A stretch of DNA of 64,000 nt from Parabacteroides goldsteinii (GTDB lineage Bacteria; Bacillota_I; Bacilli_A; RFN20; CAG-826), in the NCBI GenBank assembly GCA_963632335.1, contig CAVGUA010000109.1, positions 21,982-85,981 of the forward strand. The letters run 5' to 3'. Positions 26,511 to 51,886 of this stretch are shown in pieces (the stretch's first letter is position 1; every line of letters starts with the position of its first letter). A program made the translations under genes and the position numbers. The notes under the pieces were generated by a model. The model was not told where the DNA came from and searched no databases. It saw only the letters and a program-made list of their open reading frames with translations.

Positions 26511-26548
26511 TTAAGGAGTGTCTTTTGTTTTGAAAAGACACTCCTTAA
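26511..26548 (-). terminator. Rho-independent terminator after the 2,242-aa gene
   Basis: 16-bp perfect stem ttaaggagtgtctttt/aaaagacactccttaa with a 6-nt loop, 33 nt past the TAA at 26581. T-rich tail on the minus strand. Confidence 0.7.
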
Positions 26549-26580
26549 AATTAAGTATTTTTAATCGTTTATTAAATCCA

Positions 26581-29500
26581 TTAGACATCAAAAGTTGTTT
26601 GTATCGCTTTTAATAACACTAATTTATCCCCTGTCCAACGTAGTTTAACATCCATGTAATTATCTAATAATGGTACATTTTTCTTGCCATTATAATATGT
26701 ACCCCAAGAGGACAAGTCAAGTTGTGAAGTGTCCTTATAAAACGCATAAACATCGCTAGGGACAAATCGTTGAAGACTAGTATTATCGCCTCTTTCATTT
26801 GCGTTAATTACCTTTTCACCGATTCCATTTGTTAACAAAGATTCATTAATTTTTTTGTCGCTTAAAAATATTTTACCATCATTATTACCAACAGTAATTT
26901 TTAATGGATTAAAATCCTCTGGTACAGGTGCATTGCCAATACTGATTGGAGGGACAATGTGACTTGAATCTTTATTATACCAAGAATCAATATCCTCATT
27001 TTTCTGATAAATATTCAAGGGCTAAATCTGTATTGCCCAATAACCATTAGTAAACTATGCGTTACCTCTTGTCCTGCCAACTTCTTCAATGTCTCGTATT
27101 AACTAGTGATTGCATAATTTAAACGAATCTTCTTGCTTGTTAAACACAACTTCACCACCTGAATAATCTTGATAATTAATGTTGTTATTATGATTAACAG
27201 CTTTTTTATAAAAATCTTCAATTTCATTAAACGTGTCTTGTTTAGAATAAACCAATGGTAACATTGTAGCTTTGTAATAATTTGACTATGCAACTTTATT
27301 CCTTAAATAATTATTATCATCTGCTTTTTCAAGGAAATCACTAGCCAAAATTGGCTTTACGTTAGTCATAAAATCACTATCCTAAAATGGCGTATGATCG
27401 TATAAAATATCAGATCCATTTTGTTGATAGAAAGCCTTGGTTGCTTCTTGTCTTAAATACATGTTCCTCTTGTCTTTTGAGAAATCATATAAATCGCCAT
27501 TTATCGTCATATGTACTGATTCTGGTTTGACATTATTTGAGAATACCATTAAATTCTAAAAACGTTTTAAAGTGCCATCTTCTGCGCCAACAATAAAGTT
27601 TATTTCAAAAGGATGCTGTTTACCATACCATAAACACGGTTTTATTTTTTCAACATCATCAATTAATCCTGCTTGACCGTGCTTCCAAAAATCAGTTCTT
27701 AACTTTGGATAAACAGCAGAGAATCTTTCTGTATAAGACTTCTAATTCGTTAAATTATAGATATTTGAAACGCCATTTGCTAATGAGACAAATGCTAATA
27801 CAGTTGGCGTGTTTCCAGTGAGAATGCAAGAACCAGAAGCAAATTCAACTTCCTTTAAAGATGTGACCTCTGAAAATGTTAAACATAATTGAGTTTCAAA
27901 ATATCCAGCATTATAACTAACATATTTTTCTGAACGTTTTACGTCATAACTACCAATTGACGTTGCGTTAACATCAACCGCATTCATTTCGCATTTAATA
28001 CATAACTATATTACTGGCTTCTGAGGCTCTTCCTTTAGCATCTTATATCTAAGTTTAACAACATTGTCTTTTTCGATATATAAATAAGATGCTCCATAAT
28101 CAAAAAATCCTTCTTTATGCCCAACGCCATCTGTCTAATCGGATTCTTCAATATTTGAATTTGTAAAGAAATATTTAAAGTTTCCGAAATTATCTCTCTC
28201 TACAGAAAATTTATATTTTACCCAAACGTCTTTGCCTGTTGGAAAATATTTGTTTTGCAGATATAATGGCGTTCTGTAGCAATTTATAGATTTGTCACCT
28301 TCTTTTATTATGCATTCTTCCCATTTGTCAATTAAAACGGATTTAACACAAGTTCCACGGGCGTCCGTGTCAAATTCATCAAACTCATCAAAATAAGAGA
28401 ATGACTATGCTGTAGTGTTTGAAATTTTTGGCTATGTAACTGTATCCGCAATACTCATTCCTAAATTAGCAATCCACTTTGAAGCATTTCTATCATAACT
28501 AAAATAAATATTATGAATATTTTCAGACCAACTAGGAATCCAAGAATAGAATGTGGTAAATTTCCCCAACTATTCATTATAACATAAATTCCACGTCTTT
28601 TCCTCAAAACCTATTGTATTATCATAATAAGTAAACATTACATCGCCTTTATAAGCATTGTAATGCGTCTTAACATTTCTTACGCCAATAATAGTTTCTG
28701 TTTCACGCTCTTCAAGCGTAATGTTTTCATTTAAGAATTTTTGAACTTTAAAGTCAGAAATAAGTTTAAATCCAGATGAAGAAACTTGCCATATCTTTTT
28801 ACCAACTGTATCAACTCCATAAACGGCATTATTTGTTACACAAACGCTTTCTGGCCATTGTGTCCCAAAGTCGGTAGAATACATCTATATTTCAGACAGT
28901 ACACTTGCAACCCCAAGTTTTAACTATAAATCTTTCTCGTTACTACTATTAAATAGAGCTTGCTAGTTTACGGCTATTCTTCCAATACCGTGCTCAAATA
29001 CAGCTATTAACTAATTACCAAATTCTACAAGTCTCATCAAACCACCATATTGTAATGGATAATCCTTATAAGCTGTAGACTAAAATTCTCTAAAACCATT
29101 CCTAAAAGCATCAGTTGATGCTTGTACTGAATAGGCAATTCTAGTCTAAAAATTATTTTTTAAATACGGAACATTTGTATTTGTAAAATATGTTTTTTGT
29201 CCCGTTGAAGAACTGAAGCCTTGATTGTAGCATTGAGATTCTGGTACTTTATGATTGCCAGCAACTGAAATTTCTTGGAATGGATAAAAACCACGAGGAA
29301 TCCCACAAGCTGCATATTCAGTAGAATAAGTTGAATCAATATCACGATAACAAAGATTCATTGAACTTCTAATCGGGAACGTTATCCAGAGACCTAATTT
29401 TACCGCATTTATATCTCCTCTATTAACATCTGCATGATCAGACGTTCCTTTCCAATTGTTTTTCCAAGTGTTTTTATCAACTATAATATCATTATATTGC

Positions 29501-32500
29501 GCATCAGGGTCGTTGAAGTTTCTATTAAGTCTATGAGTGAAATTACTGATATAGCAGTCGCCTCTAAATACAGCTATTACACTATCATTCATTGTTCTTG
29601 TGTTTCCTCTAGAATCAGTATAACTTAATGAACTACACCTATTTGTATAATCATGATATTCAACTCGGTCGGTAACAGCATAATATGGAGATTGATCGTT
29701 GAAGCGTATTTTAAATTTAGTAAAATCACTAGTTGATTCATTGCCTGGAACATAAATATTTACAATTTCAGACGGTAATAAATTCTTATTCCCAGACATC
29801 CCCAAGTAAGCACCAAATGAACCACGAATAATAGCAGAATTTAACGGAGTATAACCTTTTGGTGTGCTATCTCCAAATATTGCTTTTGCTCCAGACGCAA
29901 CACCTTGCATTATACCTGCTGTGGCAGCACCAGTTGCAACTGCAACCCCAAGTGTTAATGCTGTTGCAGCAACTGTTGAACCAACAGCTGTAGCAACGCC
30001 ACCTATTGTTGTTATTGCTCCAATTGCAGAAACTGCACCACCAATGCTTATTGGTGCAGCTGCACCCCAAGTACAAACTGTTACTGCTACTGCAGCTGCA
30101 ACTGTGACAGCAATTGAGACAATTTTGAGCCATTTTTTAAATTTTGACTTTTTCTTTTTGAAAGATACATAATTATCTTTTGTCGGTATTTTATATCTTT
30201 CTTTAGGTACACAAGAAACAAAAGAAATATCTTCTGCTTCTCCGCATCTTGCACGGAAGTTATGTCCATTATTTCGTATAAGTGGAGTGTTGTCTGGGAT
30301 TGAAATTATATGTAATTGCTCTAAAATATCTTTTGTTGGTTTTTTCCAGCAATTATTCCATGAGCAAAACATGAATCTATCATTGTTTTCATCGCAAATC
30401 ATTCTTAATTGGTCTGTAACATTTTTTACAGGGAATTTTCCTCCGCTAAAAATTGAATTATAATATGACTAGTTTAATTCAAATTCGGGACAAAATGCAG
30501 TTAATGTTTCAGTACTTGGCTCATCTAGTAGTTTTTCAGTAAATTCTGTTGAAGTATATGATTTTTTTGTTTTAGTAGGCCATGATATTAATTGTGGATT
30601 AACATCCGCGTCATCTAAATCTTCATCGTCATTTACTGGCAAACTAGCATCAGTCTTCAAAAATGTTTCAGTGCAATAAAGAGCAGGTTGAGATGTATAG
30701 TCATTTGCGTGGTTTATTCTAATAATAGGAGTTCCAGAAACATCATCAAAACCTTCCGTAAAAGCCTGTGCTAATATTGTTGGTATTCTTTTTTGACGCA
30801 CAATAAAATGTCCTTTTATATGATGCTTTTCTCTTAACTCCTTAATAACATCATCTCCAACCTTTATTGCTAAACCATATATCACTGGATTGCCAAATTC
30901 AAATTGTTCAACTGATTGTTCTCTGTATTCTCCACTTGCTTTATTGACATTTGTACTGCTGGATTCATAATCCCATTGTTCCTCTGTAGACTTCCTTTTT
31001 ACAGCAATCTAATCAGAAGGAAAACGAACAACGCCAGCTGAATTTTCTAGTGTCAATTTGTTTATCCAATTAGTATCATAATCAATAGTAAACGTATCGC
31101 GTTCTGTATATGGATTATTATTAGAACATATCGCTATTTTCCCTGTTTTGTCAGCAATTTTAACTGTATCTGGCTGCTTGTCCCATTCTGTTGAATAAAA
31201 AGGAGAAGGTGTGTTTGTGGTGACCATCACGTCTTCAATATTGGTTAACTCTCCAATACCTCTTATATTAAAAACAGGTGTTAAGCTACCATCGTCCATT
31301 ATATAAACAACACCAAACCGATACATCTCTTCTGGCCAATAACCAACATAATTGTATACGCTTGATGCATTATAATACCCTCCTATACCATAAGCATCTT
31401 CACCATCGTATTGTGGATAGCCAACTAAAGCATCACATGAAAGAACTTGATAAAATGGCAAGAACTCAAGACTGAGTTTTTGTAATTCGTCATAATCAAT
31501 TTTAGGCTTTGTGGCATTGCCAAGGAATAACATGTTTTGACACTGAGCTTGTGTTTTTACCCTACTAAAAATTTGATGTTCTGAAAGTATCTCGTCTTTT
31601 GCGGCTACTTCAGTTGTTTCAGTTCCTGTGATTATAAATGAGCAGCTCTATGACAATATTCTATATTTGTCTAATATTTTATGATATGTGACATTTCCTT
31701 CAGCACCAGAAGCATTGCTGCTTCTTGAATAATATATAGAAAGATAATCATATGCTGTATCAATATTTGATACAGTTAAATTAATACCTTTGTATGAATT
31801 TTCGTCAAGCTGTCCTCCTCTAATTGTTTGTGGACTATTTATATTTCCAATATAAACAGGTATACATCCAGTTTCGGCGATAACATCAGTTTCATTTCCG
31901 TCAGCGTCAGCCAACTTGAAATAAAACGTATACATTCCAACTTTTAATTGACCACCATATGTTAATCCATTGAATGTTATAACAGGTATGTGTTTATATC
32001 GTTTATTTAAAGACGTGTCAAGATCAAACTCATCACTATCATACAAATTTGTATCTGTATTTCCCTTTCTATCAACACGTTCATAAGTATTTAATTCTAA
32101 AGGAGTAAATCTGGTATTTATTAATCTTGGAATATTTTTATTATCATTTAAGATAAGGTTTGTTGAACCATCATAAGACTATTGACATTCTATTTCAACA
32201 GGATGCCTTAAATCAAAATCTAAAACATCTGTTTCTCCATTGCCTCCTGTTATTAAATCTTCTATAATTCCATCCTCTTCAAAAACAAGGGGATAAATGT
32301 CACTTGTTACATGTTTTAGGCCTACAATATTTCCATCACTATCATATTTCCTATGAGCATTGTCAAGGCATTTGTAGTATTTACCATTACGAGTAAAATG
32401 ATAAGCTGACTCTTCCGAAACTTCAGTCACGATTTTGTTTGCAGAAGCATATAAGTCTAAAATACCAACACCATATTTATATTCATCAGATACACTTGTG

Positions 32501-33309
32501 TTTGTCAAAACAGTGCTATCAGAAAAATCATCAGTGGCATCACCTGCAGGAGTGCTGTATTTATAATTGCTTACAATAAATTTTGTATCAACGTTTTTAT
32601 ATTCTGTTTTTAAAACAGAAACTAGTTTTATGTCGAGACTGCCAACGTTACTTATCAAACCTGTTGCATTGATAAATACTATATTATCGGTATAATCAAT
32701 TGTTTTACCTGAACTGTCTTTTGTTGGCAGTTCATCTTTAGAACCAGATAACGACATTGCAAGTTGTCTACAGAGTTCCTACACTGAACCGCAATTAGAA
32801 AAACATGAAGAAACAGGAATGTTTTTTAAATCTATTTCTGTCTCACCATCACTCCAAGTTGTGTTATTGACGTAATATTTTACATTTGTTGTTTCTGAAT
32901 TACTATCAGCTTCTACACTACTGACTTTAGATGTTGTGACAAGAGGTCCAATAGTTTTCTATTGAGAATCAAAACTAATGCTTGTTATACCTGAAAAACC
33001 AAGATTCTCTAAAAGGGTTTTAAATGAACGAGAAAGCTAAACAGAATAAGTTACTTTACTGATTGTTGTTACTTGTTTGGTTATTGAACTAGAAGCCGCT
33101 TCAATTAAACCTGCCTCTAGCACATTGTTAATAGCACCGTTATTCCAAATGACAACATTAGTCAATATATTCCTATCTGCAGACAAATAGTTGCCTTCGG
33201 AATCCTTTAAATACTAATTACCTTTTCTAAAATTATATAATGGATTGTACTCCCAGGCCATTGACCCTTTATTTTTTATACATTGTGTTGCGTATTTTAT
33301 TCGCGTCAT
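26581..33309 (-). CDS. 2,242-aa tail-associated protein with an internal 87-aa Ala/Gly/Val/Thr hydrophobic segment
   Basis: Fragments 26581 (TAA), 27742, 28570, 29146, 30469, 31009, 31648 and 32179 share one frame; all but the first end in TAG. Every gap was checked. The ATG at 33307-33309 is 2 nt after the upstream TAA. Confidence 0.8.
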
Positions 33310-36300: not shown

Positions 36301-37289
36301 AAACTTGACAAAATATCAGGAGTGTTTAGCGTAAAAATCAAATATAAATCACCAACAATTTTATTTTTATAAATATTCCAAATAATATCCTTAGTATCAG
36401 TTACATCCTTCATATTAATAAAGGACTGATAATAAATATCACTATGTGTTTTATTGTTTGAATCCACATAATCACATTGACACCAGCTATAGAAGTCATA
36501 GGTGCAAGTATTTACATTAGGTGGCGTGTTTGTCCAATTCTTTTTATAAGTGATTTTATTATCGCCTGAAAGTTCAGTTATATTATACCAATATTGAGAA
36601 GCTAAGGCATTTAATGCAATGTTTGTCAAGTTGCCAGATGCATCAATAACCGCCACATCCATTTTTAAACTTCCTCTTTGAAGCCAAATCATTAAATTGT
36701 CAATAACATATTCTGTATTGTCATCAGGAATATGTATTGAAAATTTATCACCAGGTCGAATTGTATCAGCAAGCATTATTTTCTAAGTTAAAGAATCTAT
36801 TGTGGCTTCTCTTATATAACTATATTCTTTAACTACTGAACTATCATCATTTCCTACGTATTTTGAATAAACTATATTATCAGCACCAAATTCAATATTA
36901 GTGCTTGCTGATTCATATTTTTGCTCGCTTTTGTATGACTAAGTAAAATTTTCCAATTTTTTTACCGAGGAGCCATTTTCGTCACTGCTCACATTTCTTT
37001 CTGGACTAGGGAAACACCCAATCTAACTCTATTTTGTTAATGGATTATGGCTTGCAACATAAACAATTCCTCCAAACTCCTTCATTCCTACAGGCACAAA
37101 TCCAGCTGGCAAATAAGCAGATTCCACACGTCCATTGCCCATGTCGTTTTGCAAAATAAACTCATTGCCATCCATTGTGATTGTTGTAGCATTTAAGGCT
37201 CCTGCAAGTTCCGTTTTTGACATTGCAATTGGATTTTTGTCAAGCACCATGCCCTCTTGCCATTGATTTATCGACGTTTGTCTTGCCAT
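33312..37289 (-). CDS. 1,325-aa tail/receptor-binding-type protein
   Basis: Fragments 33312 (TAA), 34263, 34872, 36036 and 37029 share one frame. Gaps were checked. ATG at 37287-37289 with an in-frame TAA upstream. Confidence 0.8.
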
Positions 37290-38236
37290 ATCGTTTTGTT
37301 AATTTTCATCAAGTCTTTCATTGTAAAATTGGTACCATCTCGTATATATATTGCCTTCTTAAAAGGGATTGTACCATCACTATTCAAATCTGTTTTTAAA
37401 ATTTTATATAATTTATTTGTTGCCGCTGCAAGGTCGCATAATATTTCATACTTCCATAATTTTTGTCTTACTATTTCATCTGAAACTATTAAGTTTTTTG
37501 GCATCTGAAAATAATAATAATCATCAGCAGGCTTTTTTCTGCGATTATATAAAACCCCAAGTTTCGTTATTAATTTGCTTTGATAATAAGCCTTATGCTT
37601 TAACGAATCTGTAGTTAATTTTCCAACCAAAAATAAAAAATCTCTAACTTTAAAGCATATATCTCCACCATATTGTATGTGACGATATACTGAATCAAAA
37701 CCATATGTCATGATATACAGCAAATCTTTTATGTTTAAAGTTGGAAACATTTCCTATAAAACACTTTTATAATCAACTACTTTTTTTTCATTTTTCTAAA
37801 AAAAAATTGTTTGATTTTCAGTATGTTCGATTAATTTTCTTTTTTCATCGCCACTTATATAAACTCGCAAAAATGGATCTTTAATATTTCTGTTTTTTCT
37901 ATGTATTACTAAAGCTAATGCAGAAAAATTAGTCTTTAAGAAATCAACGTCCTAAAATACGCCCAATCTTCGTAGCCTTTTAAAATCTTCTCCTGCATAA
38001 CGTTTTACATACATTGAAAAATTACTCCTACCAGGGAAGATAAATTCAATATCATTGTCAATTATATCATTTATGATATATTTGAGTGTCTTCATAAACA
38101 CATAATGAACAAATCGTATTTTAGAATAATCATGAAAATACTACCATGTTTCCTTTTGTGTAAAATGTATTTTTTTTAAATCAAAATTCTCAAATATATC
38201 AAATAAATCAAAGCAATATCCTAAAGCAAATCTCAT
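37268..38236 (-). CDS. 322-aa basic protein, unknown function; first gene of the giant-gene transcription unit
   Basis: Track fragment 37268..37750 (TAA stop) extends upstream through four in-frame TAG to the ATG at 38234-38236, which is preceded by an in-frame TGA. It overlaps the next gene by 22 nt. Confidence 0.65.
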
Positions 38237-38332
38237 AAATCATTTTATATATTATTTAAAAATACATTTAATACATTCTATTTTCTAAAAAAATGGAATT
38301 AACGATACTTTTATATATATAGTTAATGCTCA
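38237..38332. promoter_or_regulatory. Divergent intergenic region (candidate promoters for both strands)
   Basis: The only divergent gene junction in the window: 96 nt, very AT-rich. I recognised no consensus promoter. Confidence 0.3.
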
Positions 38333-38620
38333 ATGAAAATGAATAAATTACAACAATTTAAAGACATAATTAATGGTCATGTAAAAGAAGTTTTAAACGA
38401 TGAAGAAGCATTATTAAAAAGACGTTTAAAAAAATGTAAATCATGCCCGTTGTTTACAGATAAATTAGGCGGCATGTGTGACCGTGATAAATATTATGAT
38501 TTTTAGAATAACAAGCAGTGCAAACCTGAAGATTCTGAAAATTGTATACATGGCTGTGGGTGCAGACTATAGGCAAAAGGAAGGCTGCCTTATGCAAATT
38601 GTGTTGCTAATAAATGGTGA
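38333..38620 (+). CDS. 95-aa Cys-rich (CxxC ... HGCGC ... C) zinc-ribbon-like protein
   Basis: ATG at 38333, in-frame TAG at 38504 and 38570, TGA at 38618-38620. Nine Cys residues, including KKCKSCP and CIHGCGCRL. Confidence 0.6.
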
Positions 38621-38623
38621 TAT

Positions 38624-39454
38624 ATGGAGAAAGCAAAAATTTTTGTTACTGATTTAGTTAAGCAGTATTCAGGTGTTTTTGACGTTCAATTTTGGAGTAC
38701 GTATAAAGCTTTAGAAAGATTACTTCCTGCTGATGTTTGGAAAGAAGAAAGGAAGAAATTTATGGACACAAGAGTTGTTAATAAAAAAATATTAACTAAA
38801 TATGAAATCACATAGGAACAATTGGATTCGACTTGCGCAGACATTAAAACTGAGTGGCAAAAAAAGAGTGATGAAGCCGCAGAAAGAGGAATTAAAATCC
38901 ACGCATAGATTGAACAATAGTTTAAAGATCCGAGTAGTTCTATAGATCTTAAAGCATTCGGTATTGGTGGGATTATAGATGTCCCAATATGTAATATATC
39001 TACTCCTGATCTTCCCTCTGGCGTTTATTCTGAGTACCCCATTCTTGTTGATTGCGGAGATATTATACTTAGTGGTAGAATCGACTTGCTTGTCAGAGAT
39101 GGCAACGACATATATATTGTTGATCATAAAACCAATAATTAGATAAAAAATAAGGGTGTGTATAATGGGAAAAAACATGATATACAAAAAATGAAATTCC
39201 CATTAAACGATTTGGAAGACACTACGTTTAATCATTATTCAATGTAGCTGTCGATTTATGCCTGGATGTTGCAATAGCTTTTTAAAGATATTCAAATAAA
39301 AGAATTAATAATCAATCATTTTGGTGAAGGTAATAAACATGAGTTTATTCATTGTGACTACATGAAAGAGCATGTTGAAAAACTAATGAATCAATATTAG
39401 AAAAAAATAAAGCATAAAACACAGCTTGATAAGTTAAAGCCGTTTGAATATTAA
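38624..39454 (+). CDS. PD-(D/E)xK (RecB/Cas4-like) nuclease, 276 aa
   Basis: ATG at 38624, seven in-frame TAG, TAA at 39452-39454. Motifs: GIKIHA, GRIDLLV, IYIVDHKT and Q(TAG)LSIYAW (QxxxY). Confidence 0.75.
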
Positions 39455-39496
39455 AAAAATAGTAGTTGATTATATTAATCAACTACTATTTTTTTA
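39453..39496. terminator. Bidirectional rho-independent terminator
   Basis: 15-bp stem aaatagtagttgatt/aatcaactactattt with a 5-nt loop. An A-run lies upstream and a T-run downstream, immediately after the nuclease stop. Confidence 0.7.
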
Positions 39497-39804
39497 TCTA
39501 ATAACATTTCCTTGTATAATATAAGTTTTTATTTTCAACAACTTGTGTGTGCAATATTTATGTTAAAACCAGCCAAAAGTACTTTCGTTGTTTTATTTTA
39601 ATCGACGTTTATAACAATAACATCTGACATGCTAATCTAAAGCAAATGTTTATACAAAGTTTTTGACTAAAATAATCTTTTATTGCTTTTCTCCAAGCTT
39701 TGCCTTCTTTATATTTTTATTAACGGCTCCCATCTGGGGCTGTATTCATATTGCACCTAGCCAAATTTTGACAAAAATTGTTTATTTTTTTTTCTTCAAT
39801 TGGT

Positions 39805-40680
39805 TTAATATATTCCTTTTAATTTTAAATCACCACACGTTAACATTTGATTGCCTAAGCAATAAACATATATAGTTTCGTTGTTGCATAAAAACGAACC
39901 AATCAAATTGCATTCTGTTAAAACATTATGCCCAGCATCGTCTATAAGAGATAAATAGCGTTTTTCGTTTTCTGGTATACAGAAATAATGATAATTATTT
40001 TCACCAATTATAGGAATCCAAAAATTTTGCCTTCTTCCGTATGAAGGCTTTTTTGAATTTTCATGATTAGTATACTTTTTGATGATTTCATCTAATGTGA
40101 ATGGCTCTGCGTTACTTTTTGTTTCATACCACATGATGCCATTAATTGCAGTTAAGTAAAATTGCTAACTAAATTTTTTTGACATCCCTTCGTTATATCG
40201 ATAGTCGTTCGGGTCAGTTATTGCCTTTGTCGTGATTTCAAACGTCAAATCAACGTAACCTTTTTTTAAATCTTTAATTGCAAATAAGCTATTCAATAAA
40301 TATTCATTAAAATCATCCTTAGTGCCTGTTTGTTTTAGTATTATATTATTTTTTTGCTCAACAGTTAAAGACCAAGTTTCAATTTCTGCTTTTAATTCGT
40401 TAGGGGCATTTTTATATTCGTCGCTAAAAACAATTGTAATCAATTCTACCGAAGTAGAACCTATAATTATATAAGGGTCTGGTGCGTCTATTGTAAATTC
40501 AGGAAAAACACAATGGGGTGCTACCATTCTTTTTACTACTTCTTTGACAGATAAATCTGATAATTCATCTTTTGCATTTATATTGCCAATTTTAGTTGTA
40601 GCATATGTTGGCTCGTCATAAAAACCTGGAGCAATCGAATATGTTTCTCCGTTAAGCCTGATATTTTCAATGTTTTTCAT
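39805..40680 (-). CDS. 291-aa hypothetical structural-module protein
   Basis: Fragments 40165 (TAG) and 39805 (TAA) share one frame and are joined. The ATG at 40678-40680 follows the terminator T-run. The longer track start at 40731 lies inside the hairpin. Confidence 0.65.
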
Positions 40681-40695
40681 AAAAAAAATATTATA

Positions 40696-40733
40696 AATTG
40701 CACACAATACTACGTCTAGTATTATGTGCAATT
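40696..40733 (-). terminator. Rho-independent terminator
   Basis: 17-bp stem with a 4-nt loop. The single mismatch is C.A on the plus strand but a G.U wobble in the minus-strand RNA. T8 follows on the minus strand. Confidence 0.65.
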
Positions 40734-40745
40734 TAGGAAAATATA

Positions 40746-43046
40746 TTAATAGAGGATTAGAGTTTTTGTTTCTTTTTCATACTCATGAGGCTATCGCCAT
40801 TTTGTTTCTGTCGTGTCTTCAATTAGTGCTGGGTTAAAATTACCGTCTAAAGCATATAAAATAAATTTCTTATTTTCAACATCATATATTTTCTAGACAA
40901 AATTATAACCGCTCGCTATTAGCTCATCTTCTGTTGTTACAGCTATTTTTTTATATGATTTGGCTGTTGTATATTTCATATACTATGATGTTGTAGTATC
41001 ATAATATGTTGAGCCTTCTGTTTTTGCATCTGGAGCAGCACTAAGTTTTTGGACAAAAAAATCAGTTGAATTTAAGTAAATATCTTTTAATGGATTATTT
41101 ATAGTCAGCTTAACATAAGTTCCCTCTGTCAACCCCAATTCTTCTGCTTCAGAGGTAGATAAATTAATAAATTTTCCGTCTGTAATATACCTGTCATCAG
41201 GTATTTCAATGTTTGCAATATCAAGAATTTCGTTATCTTTTCCTTGCGTTATAGTGTAAATTGTTTTGTAATTTTCGTCATCATGTTGTTTTGACATTCT
41301 AACGACTAATTTATCAAAATCAATGTATATTGGCTATTCTCTGTTAGCAATATCTAATTTTAGATATAATCCATTTTTTTGTTTTATTGGCTCGTCAGTG
41401 TATATCGAATCTTCAATTATAGAATTGTCGGTGTCAACATTATCATTGATTGAATAATATTTTTTATCATTATATTCAAATTCAGTGAGAATGCCGCCTT
41501 TTATAAACAATCCTGATTCTGTTTTTTTATAATAAACCTACCCATCAGCTAAAACATCACCACTTTGTAAAAATATTTTAGTATCACCTGCGTCATAACA
41601 ATGATATGTATAAACAACACTTTCTGTGCTTTCTCCGTCTCCAGTTAAAAGCGTCACTTCTCCATTTGAAATAACAAGATCCGACGGTACTAAAATATTA
41701 CCTACTTCCTTTTCGTTTTGGAGCAATGTATATTTTACATAATCATCATTTAATATTTTATCAAGTTGCAAATCAACACTATATTTCTCCCATCCAGAAT
41801 CAACAATAGTTCCTGTTAAATCAATTTTATAATAGGCAATATAAATACATTTTTCTTCTGTATTGTAGTAAACCCCTTTTGGTGTGCCAATTATATCTTT
41901 AAAATTTTCATCGTCAACAGAATAAGGATGTTTGTTGAAACAAGCAAGATATAAATCTCTAGCTTCTTTTTCGGTTAAAAGCGATTTAAAAAAATCTTCA
42001 AACTTTGGATTAACTCCAACATTATTTGTTTTATCATTGTCTAAATAATAAAGTGAATCAATCGTTTTTGTTATTATAGAGCCGTCTTTATTGATAATAG
42101 TAGTAGGTATTTGACCTGAAATTTTCATTGCCCACTCATTATCATACTCTTTAACCTATTCTTTGTTAATCAATGGGACTTCCTCTAAATTAAAGTAGTT
42201 ACCGCCAAGGTCTTTAACGTCAATATATAAAGACCAATCTTGATTTGCAATATCAAGCTGTAGGTATACTCCTTTTTTTAAAGTTGTATAATCATATATA
42301 TTAGAGCCAGAAACATAATTTGACGCATCAAATCTATTCTATTCATCATCAGTATTCTAAATATAAACATTTCCTGCTTGTGATGATTTTTTTAATTCTC
42401 CTTCTGTGACAATATCATCATCTGTATTTTTTATATAATAATAATTGCCAGCAGCCAATTGCTGTTCGGCTTTAATATATATTGTTTTGTATTGATTATT
42501 ATATGCTTTATATAATATTCCCTAAATAACTTTTAATCCATCATCACCAACCTTAACAACACATCCTGACTTTACAACTAAATCTGCATTGAAATTTAAT
42601 TTGCCAAATAAATCATTTCCTTTATAAAAGGAATATGTAATTATTCCATTTTGTTTTGTTGATACAACACTTAATTCTTCTGCATCACTTATTGAAAGTT
42701 TTGTGTCTCCAATTTGAAAATATTTTATTTTCAAATTTTCACCATCTTCTGTTTTTATTATCGCATTTTCTGTTTTTAATAAAGAAGATTTTGGAGTGTA
42801 TGTATATTGCTGTATAATATCGTTTGAGTTTGCAATTTCACGCCACTATCCAAGTTTAGAGTCAATACTGTTTTTTTTTGAAAAAATGTATGCTTTCCCT
42901 GTCTCTGTTACTGTTGCAATAAAACTATCTGGTAAATCATCAACATCAAAAGCCAATAATTGTTTTAATGTATCAAACCCATCTCGCTCAAAGTTTCTTA
43001 ACGGACCTTTATAGTCAAAGCCCGAACCTATAATAATTCCAGACAT
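40746..43046 (-). CDS. 766-aa tail protein, unknown function
   Basis: Fragments 40983, 41538, 42522 and 42846 share one frame and end in TAG. Gaps were checked. TAA at 40746-40748. The ATG at 43044-43046 overlaps the upstream TAA (TAATG). Confidence 0.75.
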
Positions 43047-44194
43047 TACTTAAATATAAATTTAATGGGTTCATCTGCGGTAAAATAATCATGCTTAATA
43101 TAGCATATATATGGTACGCCAACCGTTGTTTCGGAATCTTGATTTACTATTGAATACTATTTTGTGCTATTATCATACTGCACATTAAATGTTGTTTTGT
43201 TAAATAGATTAATTATTTCATAATTCATTATAATAGAAGACAATTCATTTAACTTTGCAGGATAAGCAAAAAATGGACACTTTTGCACAAAAGAAATACT
43301 ATCCGATTCAAAAGGCAAAGTATTTATATCTGTTACGATACAATTATTTAAATCATATTCAGTAATTGTTCTTGCAGCAACAGGATCTACTCCTGATTTC
43401 TTTTCAATTGTAGATATAACTTTTTTCTACAAGTTCGTGCTAGAAAACTAATACTACTAACTGTCCTGTATTGTATAATACTTGCCAGTAGCCGTTGATT
43501 GTTTTAACTAACCACCAAGCGTAAATATTATTTGATTTGCAGTATAATAAAAATCTAAACCATCTTCTAATGTAGAAGTATTTTTTAGATAAATAATACT
43601 CTATCCATTTGAAAAGCTATACCACTAAACAGTTTCATCTTTTTTTGACGTATTATTAATAACCCCAAAGAATGCTGGGTATACAATCTAAATTTTGATT
43701 GATGATGTTGTAGTCAAAAACTAATTTTGTAAAACAACATCAATATTAGCAATAGGGAATTGGGCAATATTTATTAGATAATAATAAATACCATTATCTA
43801 AAGCCGTTGCCTTAGTTGTGCAACCTTTATCTGAATATAGTTCAATATTATTTACTGTTGAAGTACTTAATATTGTACCATTATTTATTATTTTTACAGA
43901 TTTAACAGCTTCAACAACATTATTAATATCAATCTACAACAAAACTGATTTTTCATTATTTGTCATTAAATTCACAGCTTCGTTGTTGGCTGTAATAGTA
44001 ATAATTGGTTTATTGGGTTCAGTCAAGATTTGCTTTAACAAATCCTCAACCCTGTCGCCTTCCTTTACAATTGTGCCAGAAATGACCTCTCCTATAGGCT
44101 TTGTCACCTTAAACGGAGAGGTCTTTTCTGTCATCAAACTTGATATTAATATTTTTTCGTTGTTGTCAATCTGTATTTTTGAAATACTAGACAT
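43046..44194 (-). CDS. 382-aa tail protein, unknown function
   Basis: Fragment 43934..44194 was read through 13 further in-frame TAG to TAA at 43046-43048. Confidence 0.7.
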
Positions 44195-46737
44195 AATTAT
44201 TCAGAAAGTAATGTAACTGTTTTTCCGTTTGAACCTGTTAAAATTAAACTGCCATCTTCTTTAACCTAAAAATCAACATATACGGTTGGTGAATATGCTA
44301 ATCTCAATAAGTTGCTAGTGGATTCATTTCCATTAATATATAAAGCAGTTCCCGTAGAAGACGTGTCGTTTTCAATCTTTAAGCCAGTTCCTGTTCCTCC
44401 ATTTGTAATATATTCTCCAATTCCATTTCCTGAATTTGTAATCCTTGAACCAATACCATCATCTGCGGCATTTTCAACGCTGAATCCAGAACCAACTTCA
44501 TTATTAATATAAATACTTTCTTCAACACTTCCAGCTCCAATAAACTAACCAGTCATTGGAGTACTGCCGTCAAGACTTAATTTTGAATTATAAAATCCTG
44601 ACATTAAATCAGATGTTATAGTTTCTACGCCATCTGTATTAATAGTAAATGTCAAGCCTGATAAATTTCCACTATCATCAAAAGTCTAATTTGCAATAAT
44701 AGTACTAGAAGAACCATCTTCTCCGTCTTTACCAGCAGCTCCAGAAGGTAGTGAAATTGAAGTAGTTGAACCATCATCAAGATTAACATACATCTTTGTT
44801 AAATCAGCAGATTGCGTCACAGATTCAATGCCAACGCCCTTTTCTCCTTGCGCTCCTGTATCTCCTTTTTGACCGTCCTAAACGTCAAACATAATAACAT
44901 CTGTTAATTCTCCATTAAACATAATAGGCGAATCAAAAGTCATCGTAACAAGTTGATACCCAGCAGAATTATCAGTCGCATCAACATGAGTAATGCCAAT
45001 GTCTTTTATTCCTGTCCCTGTTGCGCCCTTAGCTCCTCTATGTATCTTGAACTAAACTTCAGTTGTACTCTCGCCATTAAATTCAACATAATCATCAAAA
45101 GTAAGAGTACAAACAGAATAGCCGTTTTCTAAAATATTACCATCTTCATCAACAAGATTCGAATCGTCGATAAAAAATTTATTTATTCCATTGCCTTTTT
45201 CTCCAATTATTCCTTGTTTGCCATCGTAAATTTTAACAGCTTTTGATAATTGTGTTTTAGCTTCGTCATTTAATTTAAATGATACTGTAGTATAACCGTC
45301 AACAACAACAACATTGTCTTTAATAACAGGTTCAGTATATTCAGATTCAACACTGCCAACTGAATAGCCTCGCTCGCCCTATATACCCTGATCACCCTTC
45401 GGTATTGTCAACGTGTCGGTTTGATGAGAGTCGCTTAGAACAAATGCGAATCTACCGTTGCCATCCTCGTCGTTTGAAATCTTTTTTATATCAGATACAC
45501 CAACTCCTTGAATTCCTCTCTAAACATGAATTGGGCTTGGTAGTGCATTCCCGTTTGCACTGAATGTTACAATAGTATCACCAGTTGTATCATAAGAATA
45601 ACTAACACTATCAACTGAATCGCCAGTCTCTCCTTTTTGACCTTTAGACACTTCTATTGACGTTGGCAAATAATTGCCATTTGTTGTCTAAAACTAAACC
45701 TACGTATTGCCACTTGATAACTAAGTCTCCTTTACATCTACAATTGACGCGCCATCAAAGACGTTAACAGAACCAATTGAATTTGTCGTGTTTTCTCCTG
45801 CGTAAAACTTTATAGTTGAATAACCCAAGCTCGTTGATGAACCATCAGTATGTGTGCTAGTCGCAAGAGTTACCGAATCGCCTTTTGCTCCCGAATCGCC
45901 TTTTGCTCCTCTTGGTATGTAAATTGTTTTCTATGTGCCATTATACATTGTAAAAACAATAGGAGTTTTATAGTCAGTTGTAAGATTCTATACGTCAACA
46001 CTTTTGATATTAGTTCCTATCGCAGGAAGCTAAACTGTTGATTTAGTATTATCAGTGTAAGTTATTATAATATCAGTAGTACCATCAGCATTAGTAGTAT
46101 CATTGGCAGTAATTTGCTTTATACCAATTCCATCATCACCTGAATTGCCATCAGGTACTTTAAATTCATACGGACCACCTTTGCTTGTGGTAACCTTTAC
46201 TAAAGTATAGTTGCGATCCGTTGACCATTGCCCAGCATCATTTACTGCAGTTATTCCAGTTATGCTTGTGCCGTCTGCACCCTTTGCTCCAGTTGCGCCT
46301 TTTTCTCCCTAAATACCCTAATCTCCTTTAGCTCCAGTTGCGCCCTTTTGACCATTGTAAACAAATATTTTTCCAAGCGTACTGCCTTGATCTCCAACTA
46401 AATAATATGTATTACAGGCACCACTTTCAGTACTTATTGTATTATATGATAGTTGGTTTATTCCTTCTGGTCTTTTAATTTTAAATTGTTTTATATCACC
46501 ATTGCTTAATGTGCATGAAACAACATATTGTTTTGCTTCTGTACTAACTGAAATGTCAGTTAAACCATTACCATCAACACCAAGCCATTCCTTTACTGCT
46601 TCTTTTTCAAGGTCTGTTAAATCGTCCTTTGTTGTACTAGCTGCTGCTTTGAAAATAGCTTTTGCTATTTCAGGATTGCTAGTCAAATCCTCATATGCTA
46701 TATAATGAACCGCATCTGGGTCTTTGTAACTGTACAT
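44167..46737 (-). CDS. Collagen-like tail fibre, 856 aa
   Basis: I translated every codon by hand. 17 in-frame TAG, no TAA/TGA until TGA at 44167-44169. Nine short Gly-X-Y tracts (for example GEKGATGAKGADG, GAKGDSGAKGDS, GQKGDTGAQGEKG) alternate with beta-rich modules. Confidence 0.85.
45873..45908 (-). repeat. Perfect 18-nt tandem duplication inside the collagen fibre
   Basis: ccgaatcgccttttgctc occurs twice in tandem and encodes GAKGDS-GAKGDS. Confidence 0.9.
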
Positions 46738-47006
46738 TATTCTTGATTTAATAAATATTCTTGATATTTTTTATTATTGGGAATATCATAAAAATTATCT
46801 ATAAGAGTTATTAGGGCTAGCAATTTACTATATTCTGGCCAATAACCTTTATTCATTCGTTTCATTAGTTTAAGAAACCTATCAATAGCCACCAATTTCA
46901 AATTATTGATGACAACCACATCCGCTCTTCCTTTCATTTGTTGTGTTGTTTGAACATATCCCTCCACACGCATGAATCCAATCAAGTATTCTTGCTGCTT
47001 CATCAA
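46737..47006 (-). CDS. Small hypothetical protein, start uncertain
   Basis: Its TAA overlaps the fibre ATG (TAATG). The longest form overlaps the upstream gene by 104 nt. An internal ATG at 46863-46865 would give 42 aa. Confidence 0.35.
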   Translation of the reverse strand: MMKQQEYLIGFMRVEGYVQTTQQMKGRADVVVINNLKLVAIDRFLKLMKRMNKGYWPEYSKLLALITLIDNFYDIPNNKKYQEYLLNQE

Positions 47007-47706
47007 AATGGTTTAGTTCCATACAATATTGAATAATACTTAATGCCATTGATGCCAAGTCTCGTTTATAAGTTATGTTTTCAGAAGTAGAATTGCATTT
47101 AGAACAAGTATAACTATCTAAAATTTTTTGACAATAATTTACGTAACAAAGTCTCAAAAAATGTAAACTAAGAATTTGGTTGCTATCATAGTTACATTTA
47201 AAAACACCATTCTCAAAGCTATTCTAAACTTCTGTTAAAAACGACTGACCAATTGTCTTAAATTCAACACATGTATCTTCTGCTGTATATATAGTCGTAC
47301 TTGAAGTTGTACTTTTTGTCAATTTATGAAATATACACTTGTTTGTAGAGGCGTCAAAATAATATATTCCATTCGGATAGGCAGCATATAATTCAGCATT
47401 TGTGTATTGAGAAATCCACTTCTACGTTGGTATTATAACATGATACACCTCAAAAACACCATCTTCTTCAAGCAGAAAACTCATCTTATCATCAACATTA
47501 GTACTTTTAGTGGTAACATAATGTGGTAAAATGCGAGCATCAACAAAAGCGGCCTCTCCATCTTCGTTCATTTTACATACAACATTCATTGTTGCTGAGT
47601 TACTCCATTGGAAAAGTTTTTTATCTGTAGTACTACTGTCATAAGTATCTTCGGCAATAACAGTAAGTCTATTTAAGTCTGTTTTTAAAAAAAATTTAAG
47701 TTCCAT
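46903..47706 (-). CDS. 267-aa protein with Cys-rich C-terminus
   Basis: Fragments 47422 (TAG) and 46903 (TAA) share one frame; the gap was checked. The C-terminus reads ...HACGGICSNNTTNERKSGCGCHQ. Confidence 0.7.
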
Positions 47707-47708
47707 AA

Positions 47709-49916
47709 TTAATGTCGCATTTGTACAATTCTATCATTATTTGGATTGCCGTCATTTAACTATTCTATTTCAGCTTCTGTTCTCTTATCATCATTTTTAT
47801 TCTCATTATTAACAGAAGACCTTTCAGTTTGTGCATTGAACCACCTAATCTTAACATCGTCAGCAGCCTTTTGCTCTTCAAGTTTCATCTTACGTTCGTC
47901 GTATTGCTATATCTACTGAGTTAATTGCTAGTTCTGCTTCTATAACTATTGTAATTGTTGCTGGAATTGCATAAGCTACTCTTGTGCCTACTTGAGCTAA
48001 TCATTTTCTTTTTTAAATTTATCGGTTGCTTTCCGAACACTTGATTTAGCCTAAGACAAACTTTTTGAAGTCATGACTTCAAATATAGTGTCCATTCCCA
48101 TCACTCCTGACTACATTAGCTATGGAACAATGGCTTTAATAGTTTCCAAGTCTCTAGCAATGTCCGAATTTGCAGTTACATGGACATCAAAATCAGTTGT
48201 CGTAAAATTATCTGGCAAAGCAGTGAATATTTTCTAGTATTGTTCTCCTAAAATAATTGTTCCAGTCAGTCCCTTTTTGTATACTATTTTTGCGAGATTT
48301 AATGAATCACTAAGTATTTCCTCTGTTACTAAATCCATTTGTTGGAACCAATGCTTTGTAATAATAAACGAATTATTTGCACTGACTTTTACATTTGTAA
48401 CTGCATCTCTTTGTTCAATTCCATTTAATCGCTCCCTAAAGACACCACTTATAGAACAAACTGTATTTTCAATTGATTCAATTGCAAGTTGTATTGCCTA
48501 AATTGACCCTAGTTTAGCAGTATCATCATAACCACTAAATGTCGTGTTCAACGATTGTCCAGTTGCATAACGTCCTTCCTGTGAAGTATCTATTAAAGCC
48601 AACCCTTGCTTTTTCATTGCAATCCACTTCTGTAGTCTTTCAACAGTATCTGTTCCAAGAATTGCAGGCAACATTGACACATCTAACCAATCGCCACTAG
48701 AACCTGAATTTGCAATTAACGTATCACGATAAAAATGCAACAAGTCATATTTATCTTGCAGGTGCATACATGCTATTACAAAACTAAATGGTTCATTGTT
48801 TCGATTATCAAAATAAACACCATTAATACTTAATGACGCATAAGTTGGATTAGTTATACTCCTCTATACAGTCTCATCTTTTCCTGTTAAAACAAAAATG
48901 TCTTCACCAATTCGAATGGTTTTATAACGCTACATAACATAATCGCTATCAGTCTCAAGCCATTCGACTTCATAAACAGGCACAAGACGATAATTATAGT
49001 TACTTACTTTATTGTATGGGTATCCTGGCGTTGTTACTTCATGGTCTGCCATTAAACCAGGAGTTTCCTAACACTTGTCATGAAACAATCTAACATACTT
49101 TCCTGGAGCATCATACTTTTCTTCACCAAGCATGTCTTTTATGCTTTGCTTATCCTCTTTCGACAAAACCGCTCCGTATTTATTTAATATCTATGATTTT
49201 GTCATCCAACGACGGACAACTGCTCTATAAGAATCTTTTATATAAGGAGAATCTGGATTTTTGTCAATAAAAGTATTTAACGGATTTAATACTTCTATCT
49301 AAATATTGCCACCATCAGACGTTGGTTTTACTTGGTAAAATGTATAACCTGTGATTAAAAGATCTAACAACAAAGTTTTTAACTTTGTCTATAAATCCAT
49401 TTGTCTTGATTGAATAATATACTATATTACATCTTGCGCAGCAATTTCAAATTTTGAAACAAAATTTTCAGAAACATCCGCAATTAAAGCTTCTATTTCT
49501 TTACCTACATATGGGTCGGTAAGATTGTTTTTATCACCTGTTTGTAAAAAGTCTAAAATTTTGTTTTTTGCTTTTTTCTATAATGTTGTATAAACCTCCT
49601 TAGTAATAGTCAACTCTTTTTCACGCATTATTTTTGAAATAGTATCTTGATCCTTGCAAGATACTTTTGGTATTATTGGAGAACCAAGATATTCTCCAAT
49701 CAAAGCGTCAACATGTTTGCGTATTAACGGAGTAAAGCTAACGCTGATAGGACTACCAACTCCAAAATTTTCTTCAAGAAATCTGAATTGTTCCTCATCA
49801 CGTTTGCCATTATAATAATTGTACGCCTTCTGCAAATCGTCCTTATCATAAACCAATTCGGAAATAGCCCTATTGGTTTCTTCAATCATGTCCTATTCTG
49901 TTTTTGTATATTCCAT
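47709..49916 (-). CDS. Portal protein (SPP1 Gp6-like N-terminal YYxG signature), about 735 aa
   Basis: Fragments 49578 and 48498 plus the gaps form one frame with over 20 in-frame TAG, ending at TAA 47709-47711. The N-terminus reads ...LQKAYNYYNGKRD.... The C-terminal coiled coil is Gln-rich. The alternative start is 49889. Confidence 0.7.
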
Positions 49917-49953
49917 GCTAAACGATTTTATTTTGTCTAAAAATAATATTTTT

Positions 49954-50238
49954 TTAACATATGAGCTACGTCTAGACAGAAGGTTCGTCAATTATACGTC
50001 TATTTATTTTATACATATAAAAGCCGTCAACATTCATCCCACGTATTTGCTCTTTAAAAAATTTTAAAAATTTTTCTTCTGGTAAATCACCTTGAATAAT
50101 AGTAGGCGCATCAACATCTGGTATACCAAGTTTTACTATGAAACCATATTTTGTCTACTCTAATTTTAAAGAGCCAACATAATCACAATCCCATGTTTGA
50201 TTTATAATATTTATCAAATCGTTTTTTGTCATATACAT
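49954..50238 (-). CDS. 94-aa hypothetical protein
   Basis: The ATG at 50236-50238 overlaps the TGA region of the upstream gene. Three in-frame TAG, TAA at 49954-49956. Confidence 0.6.
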
Positions 50239-51191: not shown

Positions 51192-51886
51192 TATCGTACA
51201 GGTTTGAATGATTTATTATGAACTTTTCTATTCCAAGAAGACATTGCATCAAGTACTTTATTCATGTCATTTTGATTGATATAATCAGGAACTCTAGCCG
51301 CGTCGCATGCTCTAAGCCATTCCATTTTTAACATCTACGCTGTTGCTAAAACACTCTAATTTAAAGTCATATATACTTCTTTCATTTTTGTGATGTATGC
51401 TACGTATGCGGCTATTGCCAATGCCTCTTTATCATTTATTTTTGGTAGTCCATCTTCACCAAGATATTCTCCTTTATATAATACCTTTACTTTACCAACA
51501 CAATCTTTGAAATACAATGTATTGCCAATTCTATTATATTGTAACAAATGACCACTTTGATATAATGGATCCGTGTTGCGTTTTTGAGATTCAATATATT
51601 GTTCTGTATGTGCCGATGAAATATCTCCTTCCCAACTATTATTTGTTACGTAATTCCAATCTTCAGGATCTGCTGTAACACTTTCAATTATATCAGCATT
51701 ACATGGTAATTCAAGTGAATTATCTTCACTGTTTACTTCTCCAATATATTGATAAACACGTATTTGTTTGTTACCTATTAGATTATGTGCAATCAACGCC
51801 AATTCTTCAAATTTAGATGTTGATAATTCAACACCGTATAATTCCTTTGCTAAAAAGGCCGCACGGCCCATATCATCGTATGTCAT
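51191..51886 (-). CDS. 231-aa head/neck-module protein, unknown function
   Basis: Fragment 51356..51886 was read through two TAG to TAA at 51191-51193, which overlaps the next ATG (TAATG). Confidence 0.7.

What the first reader, a model, noticed from the sequence alone, without database searches (positions are those of the whole stretch)
38237..39804. Opposite-strand island (Cys-rich protein plus PD-(D/E)xK nuclease) and a ~300-nt silent spacer inside the tail operon
Seen:
- These are the only plus-strand genes in 64 kb.
- They sit between a divergent AT-rich gap (38237-38332) and a bidirectional terminator (39453-39496).
- Both genes are TAG-recoded.
- They are followed by 39497-39804, the longest stretch in the window in which I find no plausible ORF on either strand.
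Inference: this is a moron-like or mobile cassette, or an early/middle gene pair embedded in the late arm. The nuclease could serve recombination, host DNA degradation or anti-defence. The spacer may hold promoters, a packaging or replication signal, or a small RNA.
Basis: partly seen in the sequence, partly recalled or inferred. Interest (0 to 1): 0.6.

Follow-up and report, generated by a model that had tools for sequence, protein, structure and literature searches.

The report
Relocated nuclease gene pair, dead gene
The opposite-strand "island" is an ordinary gene pair (a DNA-cutting enzyme plus a small cysteine-rich partner) found in all relatives of this gut phage but sitting in an unusual place here, and the "silent spacer" next to it is the decayed stump of a deleted 770-residue gene.

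Summary
In this TAG→Gln recoded, crAss-like phage window, 38333-38620 (95-aa, Cys-rich, "A") and 38624-39454 (276-aa PD-(D/E)xK nuclease, "B") are the only credible plus-strand genes. A 96-nt AT-rich divergent gap lies on one side and a perfect bidirectional hairpin terminator on the other.

The pair is not a moron or a foreign cassette. In 80 of 80 related IMG/VR loci, B is followed at once by A at the head of the terminase-portal operon. Only this lineage (the window and three related contigs, one near-identical and two about 91% identical) has the pair on the opposite strand, in the order A→B, at what looks like a rearrangement breakpoint. Its composition and TAG usage match the surrounding late genes.

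B has a Cas4/RecB/EXO5-like fold with all catalytic motifs but no Fe-S cysteines. A has six invariant cysteines and no known fold.

The 308-nt spacer is a pseudogene. A 91%-identical relative carries an intact 770-aa gene there. The window keeps only its decayed 5' and 3' ends. No RNA family, structure or coding signal was found.

A structural-block PD-(D/E)xK nuclease is already described for crAss-like phages. Interest is low to moderate.

The parts
37268..38236 (-). 322-aa tail-module gene, first gene of the minus-strand unit that restarts after the island
   Evidence: ORF with 4 TAG. 96% identical protein P0014 in L008 and L009. Its homologue in MT835470.1 directly follows the homologue of window gene 51191-51886.
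38237..38332 (.). 96-nt, about 85% A+T divergent intergenic region; presumed promoters for both directions (inferred)
   Evidence: Sequence. Identical to L008 apart from one TA indel, while the flanking coding sequences are 94-95% identical. No sigma-70-like enrichment. No motif shared with the regions upstream of B in canonical loci.
38333..38620 (+). Gene A: 95-aa (or 93-aa from 38339) protein with six invariant Cys, CxxCP...C...GCGC...C
   Evidence: 2 TAG. phrog_13558, E 3.9e-7. Weak DUF6171 hit, 19.4 bits against a cut-off of 27. 549 homologues. Invariant Cys. AF2 pLDDT 74.8. No PDB fold match. Only uncharacterised viral proteins in BFVD.
38624..39454 (+). Gene B: 276-aa PD-(D/E)xK nuclease of the Cas4/RecB/EXO5 type, without Fe-S cysteines
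   Evidence: PF12705, 30.7 bits against a cut-off of 22. phrog_298 exonuclease, E 1.7e-17. Invariant H93, E97, D154, D167, K169, Q208, Y212. AF2 pLDDT 88.8. Foldseek top hits are Cas4 SSO0001, EXO5, DinG nuclease and AddAB. Weak Cas4 and RecB HMM hits.
39452..39496 (.). Bidirectional intrinsic terminator shared by the A-B unit and the converging minus-strand unit
   Evidence: dG -22.1 kcal/mol, z -9.3 and -8.2. The stem is conserved in L008 and only the loop differs. In L008 it directly abuts the stop codons of both converging genes.
39497..39804 (-). Pseudogene: decayed 5' end (39804-39623) and 3' end (39572-39497) of a 770-aa gene, with about 2.05 kb deleted between them
   Evidence: blastn against L008. 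The 5' part is 75% and the 3' part 64.5% identical, with indels and a lost ATG. tblastn of residues 3-62 gives 42% identity, E 1.7e-4. Coding score is negative in all frames. No Rfam hit. Fold z-scores -0.8 and -1.5.
39805..40680 (-). 291-aa tail-module gene, last intact gene before the terminator on the minus strand
   Evidence: ORF. 83% nt identity to the L008 293-aa gene. No family hit.

Best explanation
Shown. The island is this lineage's copy of a two-gene unit carried by every sampled member of a large clade of crAss-like gut phages with 130-195 kb genomes. One gene (B) encodes a Cas4/RecB-type PD-(D/E)xK nuclease with a complete catalytic site and no iron-sulfur cysteines. The other (A) encodes a roughly 90-residue partner with six invariant cysteines. 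In nearly all relatives the order is B then A, at the start of the operon that continues to the large terminase and the portal.

In this lineage the genome has been rearranged. The portal-fibre block sits between the head genes and the tail-tube/muzzle genes. The pair lies at the far end of that block, on the opposite strand, in the order A then B.

Inferred. The pair forms its own unit, read from a 96-nt divergent region and ended by a hairpin terminator that also ends the converging tail-gene transcript. Because seven of B's Gln codons are TAG, including the active-site Gln, the enzyme can only be made once TAG is being read as Gln. That points to the later part of infection.

Its most likely job is processing ends or branches of replicated phage DNA for recombination and packaging, with A as a metal-binding subunit or cofactor.

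Shown. The silent spacer has no function of its own. It is what remains of a 770-residue accessory gene after a deletion of about 2 kb.
For: Recoding and strand layout.

Nuclease identity:
- Pfam above cut-off and PHROG exonuclease.
- Invariant motifs.
- Confident model with Cas4, EXO5, AddAB and RecE as best structural matches.

A family: six invariant Cys and 549 homologues on contigs of up to 180 kb.

Linkage:
- A lies within -16 to +150 nt downstream of B on the same strand in 80 of 80 IMG/VR loci.
- TerL lies 2.1-6.0 kb downstream in 74 of 74 loci with room. The portal lies downstream in 59 of 60.
- The same order is seen in contexts seeded from A and from B.
- TerL identity.

Derived position:
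- The island is present at the same site in L008 and L009, which are 91% identical in nucleotides.
- In MT835470.1 the homologues of window genes 51191-51886 and 37268-38236 are adjacent, and B-A sits upstream of TerL-portal.

Not foreign: G+C 0.31-0.32 and TAG share 0.40-0.41, like the neighbours. Purifying selection.

Regulatory elements: the gap is identical to L008 bar one indel. Terminator.

Spacer as remnant. Negative results for RNA or coding.

Literature: a PD-(D/E)xK nuclease in the structural block is a described hallmark of crAss-like phages (PMC7886860). Alternative code marks late genes (10.1101/2021.08.26.457843).
Against: - No expression data exist, so timing and promoter use are inferred. 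No recognisable promoter motif was found.
- The biochemical role is inferred from family and gene neighbourhood only.
- Structural matches have low TM-scores (0.3-0.4), so only the catalytic core is comparable.
- Physical interaction between A and B was not tested.
- One closer relative by capsid protein (L003, MCP 86% identical) has B without a detectable A next to it. The pairing is therefore not absolute.
- The location of TerL in this genome is unknown because it lies outside the window.
Confidence: 0.78

Rival explanations
1. The pair is a moron or mobile cassette acquired from outside and inserted into the tail operon.
For: It has its own divergent gap and terminator and lies on the opposite strand. 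Its position differs among lineages: the window, L003 and the canonical site.
Against: Homologues occur as an adjacent pair in 80 of 80 sampled relatives. Composition and TAG usage are native. Divergence from relatives (40-48% for B) is in line with other proteins of the genome. No transposase, integrase, homing endonuclease or flanking repeats are present.
Confidence: 0.04
2. The pair is an early or middle transcription unit embedded in the late region, serving replication or recombination before morphogenesis.
For: It is a separate unit with its own regulatory region. Nucleases of this family commonly act in DNA metabolism.
Against: TAG supplies 40-41% of its Gln codons, including the catalytic Gln208. 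In recoded crAss-like phages the replication genes use the standard code and the late genes the alternative code. In relatives it heads the terminase-portal operon.
Confidence: 0.15
3. The nuclease degrades host DNA or counters a host defence, with A as a regulator or inhibitor.
For: The fold is Cas4/RecB-like, and some phages use such nucleases against host systems (my own knowledge, not tested here). The small partner could be a control subunit.
Against: Strict conservation and a fixed position next to the packaging genes across a very diverse clade are not typical of fast-turnover anti-defence genes. So is frequent intein invasion at the catalytic site. The PADLOC search gave only weak Cas4 hits.
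Confidence: 0.12
4. The spacer 39497-39804 is a functional element: a small RNA, a promoter, or a packaging or replication signal.
For: It is the longest non-coding stretch in the window. It contains a short G+C-rich hairpin at 39723-39743.
Against: It aligns to the two ends of an intact gene in L008 and has decayed faster than any neighbour: 75% and 64% identity against 94-95%. No Rfam match. Folding is no better than shuffles. It lies upstream of a terminator on the minus strand, so a promoter there would drive nothing.
Confidence: 0.06

Closest known systems
Structural-block PD-(D/E)xK nuclease of crAss-like phages ('PDDEXK_a', Yutin et al. 2021, PMC7886860)
   Same: It is a PD-(D/E)xK nuclease encoded among the morphogenesis genes of a crAss-like phage. 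The window has a crAss-type portal, MCP and muzzle protein.
   Different: Sequence-level orthology to the published family was not tested. The obligate six-Cys partner and the position at the head of the terminase operon are not mentioned in the passages I read. In this lineage the gene lies antisense inside the tail module.
Cas4 / AddB / EXO5 nuclease domains
   Same: These are the best structural matches. B shares the D...DxK and QxxxY motifs and gives weak Cas4 HMM hits.
   Different: B lacks the four-Cys iron-sulfur cluster that staples those domains. There is no CRISPR or helicase context. It scores far below the curated Cas4 and RecB cut-offs. TM-scores are only 0.3-0.4.
Phage recombination exonucleases (RecE, lambda Exo type)
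   Same: PHROG exonuclease families match and RecE is among the fold hits. A phage-encoded end-processing role is plausible.
   Different: No single-strand annealing protein lies next to it. Its constant partner is a small Cys-rich protein, and its constant neighbours are packaging genes.
Phage morons
   Same: It is a small unit on the opposite strand with its own start region and terminator.
   Different: It is conserved in all relatives, compositionally native and under purifying selection.
Pfam DUF6171 (PF19668)
   Same: Six of seven A homologues give weak hits over the CxxCP region. Some database homologues carry the precomputed domain.
   Different: The window protein scores 19.4 bits against a cut-off of 27. 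The family has no known function, and no paper in the library mentions it.

Membership tests
PD-(D/E)xK nuclease superfamily, PDDEXK_1 (PF12705) | Profile score above Pfam's gathering threshold | tested here: met
   30.7 bits against a cut-off of 22, E 3.9e-7.
PD-(D/E)xK nuclease superfamily, PDDEXK_1 (PF12705) | Catalytic D ... (D/E)xK motif conserved | tested here: met
   D154, D167 and K169 are invariant in 13 homologues.
RecB/Cas4-like branch | QxxxY motif after the core strands | tested here: met
   Q208 and Y212 are invariant. Q208 is encoded by TAG in the window.
RecB/Cas4-like branch | Fold resembles solved members | tested here: met
   Foldseek probability 1.0 to Cas4 SSO0001, EXO5 and AddAB, but TM-scores are only 0.3-0.4.
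Cas4 / AddB / EXO5 iron-staple nucleases | Four conserved Cys binding a 4Fe-4S cluster | tested here: not met
   No Cys is invariant in the B family, and the window protein lacks the one Cys that most homologues share.
CRISPR-associated Cas4 | Curated equivalog score and CRISPR-cas neighbourhood | tested here: not met
   TIGR00372 scores 18.1 bits against a cut-off of 65. The neighbours are phage structural genes.
crAss-like structural-block nuclease PDDEXK_a | PD-(D/E)xK gene located among the structural genes of a crAss-like phage | tested here: met
   It is flanked by tail genes. Portal phrog_6547, and crAss_MUZ on the 2,226-aa L008 homologue of window gene 26581-33309. Definition from PMC7886860.
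crAss-like structural-block nuclease PDDEXK_a | Sequence orthology to the published family members | not tested
   No published member sequence was at hand. The B profile did not hit crAss001 at E<=0.01.
Moron | Sporadic presence among relatives and foreign composition | tested here: not met
   The pair is present in 80 of 80 loci. G+C and TAG usage are native.
Moron | Own promoter and terminator | tested here: inconclusive
   The terminator is clear. The conserved gap has no recognisable promoter.
Intrinsic bidirectional terminator | Stable stem-loop flanked by an A-run and a T-run, so that both strands read hairpin plus U-tract | tested here: met
   dG -22.1 kcal/mol on both strands, z -9.3 and -8.2. 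Termination itself cannot be tested with these tools.
DUF6171 (PF19668), for protein A | Score above the gathering threshold | tested here: not met
   19.4 bits against a cut-off of 27. Weak hits in 6 of 7 homologues.
Deletion remnant (pseudogene), for the spacer | Both ends homologous to the ends of an intact gene in a close relative, with loss of frame and start codon and faster decay than the neighbours | tested here: met

The most novel reading that the evidence does not exclude
B and A together form a split nuclease. The six-Cys protein A would supply in trans the metal (Fe-S or zinc) module that Cas4, AddB and EXO5 carry in cis. This two-subunit enzyme, encoded at the head of the terminase-portal operon in the whole clade, would be a dedicated DNA-maturation factor needed for packaging in these crAss-like phages.
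Probability: 0.15. Interest if true: 0.5.

Novelty: new member of a known kind. Interest (0 to 1): 0.25.

Why it matters
The result mainly clears up an apparent oddity.
- The island is a core gene pair left at a rearrangement breakpoint.
- The silent spacer is a recent gene loss, not a hidden regulatory or RNA element.

Two modest points may be useful to people working on crAss-like phages.
- The structural-block PD-(D/E)xK nuclease always travels with a small six-Cys protein next to the packaging genes. That gives a concrete two-protein target for biochemistry.
- TAG encodes the catalytic Gln of that nuclease, which ties its activity to the code switch.

The presence or absence of the 770-aa gene between 91%-identical genomes marks a dispensable, fast-changing accessory gene next to the tail genes.

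Tried and rejected
- Megablast of 12 kb around the island against GenBank phages: no match.
- Single-protein searches of IMG/VR with B and with the 291-aa neighbour: nothing. The profile search then worked.
- The 322-aa neighbour has only one homologue cluster in 5.8 billion proteins. Wider synteny therefore had to come from MT835470.1.
- ARAGORN: no tRNA in the window.
- Rfam at permissive threshold over 38100-40000: only noise on the terminator.
- Spacer folding: not better than shuffles.
- Sigma-70-like promoter scan: fewer sites than in shuffles.
- The Bacteroidetes -7 motif TAnnTTTG is not in the divergent gap.
- No 9-mer of the gap is enriched upstream of B in canonical loci.
- No repeats flank the island.
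- A against the PDB by sequence and by fold: only chance-level hits.
- A is not homologous to the zinc-finger protein Gp11 that occupies a similar position in crAss001.
- The A and B profiles do not hit crAss001.
- No A domain is fused to any of 149 nuclease representatives.
- The 770-aa protein has no Pfam, PHROG or GenBank-phage homologue.
- DUF6171 and MT835470 appear in no paper of the library.
- The phAss-1 paper and the Zeta-group paper say nothing about this nuclease.

Full report
**What the window is.**
- Under the standard code the window is a mosaic of short ORFs. Reading TAG as sense gives a nearly continuous minus-strand array with ORFs of up to 3,662 aa.
- The portal (phrog_6547), the major head protein and a homing endonuclease are recognisable. 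The 2,226-aa L008 homologue of the window's 2,242-aa protein carries the crAss muzzle domain.
- The portal is 51-58% identical to unannotated human-gut "Bacteriophage sp." records and about 23% identical to named Crassvirales.
- The identical nuclease protein is recorded on a 129,446-bp contig. The window is therefore part of a TAG→Gln recoded, distant crAss-like phage.
- Relatives found later have contigs of 150-195 kb and many inteins. This fits the published description of the Zeta group (PMC7886860), but I did not test that assignment.

**Checking the observation.**
- With TAG=Gln the plus strand carries two ORFs. A is at 38333-38620 (95 aa, 2 TAG). B is at 38624-39454 (276 aa, 7 TAG).
- A codon-usage score trained on the long minus-strand genes is positive for A and B. 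Every other plus-strand ORF of at least 50 aa either scores negative or lies entirely inside a minus-strand gene.
- GC and AT skew change sign only in the 38-39 kb bin.
- The 96-nt gap 38237-38332 is about 85% A+T and separates two diverging start codons.
- The hairpin at 39452-39496 folds at -22.1 kcal/mol on either strand (z -9.3 and -8.2). It is flanked by A7 and T7, so it can terminate in both directions.
- The stretch 39455-39804 is the longest gap in my gene table.
- All parts of the observation therefore hold.

**What the two proteins are.**
- B passes the Pfam threshold for PDDEXK_1 and matches PHROG exonuclease families.
- In alignments with homologues, H93, E97, D154, D167, K169, Q208 and Y212 are invariant. 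These form the D...DxK core and the QxxxY motif of RecB/Cas4-type nucleases.
- Codon 208 is TAG in the window. The active-site Gln itself depends on recoding.
- A confident AlphaFold model (pLDDT 88.8) matches Cas4 SSO0001, human EXO5, a DinG-linked nuclease, AddAB and RecE best. TM-scores are only 0.3-0.4.
- B has no conserved cysteines, so it lacks the iron-sulfur cluster of Cas4, AddB and EXO5.
- A has six invariant cysteines, CxxCP...C...GCGC...C, and a weak, sub-threshold resemblance to DUF6171.
- A belongs to a family of at least 549 proteins of about 88 aa on large phage contigs. It has no solved structural relative and only uncharacterised viral matches.

**Is it a foreign or mobile cassette? 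No.**
- I seeded context searches from B homologues, from A homologues and from a profile scan of IMG/VR.
- In 80 of 80 IMG/VR loci, A lies within -16 to +150 nt downstream of B on the same strand.
- The large terminase (identified) follows 2.1-6.0 kb further on in all 74 loci with enough sequence. The portal follows in 59 of 60.
- The pair is thus a fixed bicistron at the head of the packaging operon, just after a strand-switch junction.
- The island's G+C content (0.31-0.32) and TAG share of Gln codons (0.40-0.41, against 0.34 overall) are native.
- Against the 91%-identical relative L008, the codon differences are mostly synonymous: 29 against 11 for B and 14 against 3 for A.
- Many family members carry an intein exactly after the catalytic DHK. 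That is typical of conserved, important enzymes.

**Why it is on the other strand here.**
- L008 and L009, close relatives, have the island at the same place and in the same orientation.
- In the more distant MT835470.1 the homologues of window genes 51191-51886 and 37268-38236 are directly adjacent. B→A sits upstream of TerL and the portal on the same strand as everything else.
- Compared with that genome, the window's 38.3-51.2 kb block is placed between the head genes and the tail-tube/muzzle genes. This block holds a lysozyme-like gene, the portal, the fibre-like genes, the gene remnant, and then B and A. The pair lies at its distal edge, inverted and in swapped order.
- A third arrangement is seen in L003 (MCP 86% identical). 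There B sits upstream of the head module and no A is detectable.
- The island is therefore best read as a core gene pair at a rearrangement breakpoint, not as an insertion.

**Expression (inferred).**
- The divergent gap is identical between the window and L008 except for one TA indel, while the flanking coding sequences differ at 5-6% of positions. This points to constraint, most simply promoters.
- I found no recognisable promoter consensus.
- The minus strand contains several other strong hairpin-plus-T-run sites between genes. The "tail operon" is thus already divided into several units.
- The heavy TAG usage argues that A and B are translated only after the code switch. In recoded crAss-like phages the alternative code marks late genes.

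**The spacer.**
- L008 aligns to the window on both sides of the spacer but carries 2,051 extra bases. These bases complete a 770-aa ORF with 10 TAG codons and a gene-like coding score of 0.41.
- The window retains the first ~180 nt (75% identical, start codon lost, indels) and the last ~76 nt (64.5% identical) of that gene.
- tblastn still detects residues 3-62 at 42% identity.
- The remnant has decayed much faster than its neighbours and scores negative for coding in all frames.
- It shows no Rfam match and no unusual folding.
- A second sample (L002, 99.99% identical) has the same deletion.
- The 770-aa protein has no homologue in Pfam, PHROGs or GenBank phages. Its function is unknown, and it is evidently dispensable.

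**Comparison with what is known.**
- Yutin et al. 2021 already reported that crAss-like phages characteristically encode PD-(D/E)xK nucleases, one variety inside the structural block. The island's nuclease fits that description by location, but I could not test orthology.
- It works like a Cas4/RecB-type nuclease but is not a Cas4. It scores far below the curated cut-offs, has no Fe-S cysteines and has no CRISPR context.
- The constant six-Cys partner is not mentioned in the passages and papers I could search.

**Verdict.** This is an accurate observation of an ordinary feature: a new member of a known kind, in an unusual position, next to a pseudogene. The most novel reading still open is a split, two-subunit nuclease dedicated to DNA maturation. 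It rests only on strict gene linkage and on the missing cysteines in B.

Noticed in passing
window 55508-58090 (-): The major capsid protein gene is split. Exon 1 runs 58090 to about 57125 and exon 2 about 55954 to 55508. The roughly 1.17-kb interruption holds an Rfam group I intron match (56922-57131, 52.5 bits) and a GIY-YIG homing endonuclease ORF (56010-56924). The MCP of MT835470.1 is uninterrupted.
   Followed up: partly
proteins P0135-P0267 (homologues of window 38624-39454): 27 of 149 cluster representatives of the nuclease family carry a 130-340 aa insertion exactly after the catalytic DHK lysine. The insertion ends ...THN followed by T/S-N, and some have LAGLIDADG or Hom_end hits. 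These look like inteins in the active site.
   Followed up: partly
window 38333-51212 compared with L022/L001 (MT835470.1): The whole block from the lysozyme-like gene through the portal and fibre genes to the island is absent from the corresponding junction in MT835470.1. There the two flanking genes abut, and the portal follows TerL elsewhere. This indicates a large-scale module rearrangement in the window's lineage.
   Followed up: partly
window 26492-26580, 40694-40735, 52555-52618, 55412-55504, 60300-60389, 63131-63264 (-): Several minus-strand intergenic gaps hold strong hairpins followed by T-runs. The 19-bp stem at 40694-40735 folds at -24.1 kcal/mol, z -8.3. The long same-strand gene array is probably divided into several transcription units.
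   Followed up: partly
window 1-64000: ARAGORN finds no tRNA gene, suppressor or otherwise, in the 64 kb, although TAG supplies 34% of all Gln codons in the listed genes.
   Followed up: no
window 54572-55411, 55505-55738, 60021-60299 (-): Three minus-strand ORFs in the head region contain no TAG codon at all. 55505-55738 is part of MCP exon 2. MCP exon 1 has 4 TAG codons, and neighbouring genes have 8-64 per 1,000 codons.
   Followed up: no
window 44197-46737 (-): The 847-aa product has runs of collagen-like G-x-y triplets and repeated beta-rich units. It is probably a fibre protein (sequence). It was not searched against any family library.
   Followed up: no
L004 11127-11354, L012 8909-9076 and similar: Some standard-code relatives carry a second, weaker copy of the A-type Cys-rich gene directly after the first (A4 profile about 27 bits, E about 7e-7).
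   Followed up: no
window 39805-40680 (-) compared with L008 5550-6431: The 291-aa gene next to the remnant is only 83% identical to its L008 counterpart, while the surrounding genes are 94-95% identical. This is a locally fast-evolving tail region.
   Followed up: no
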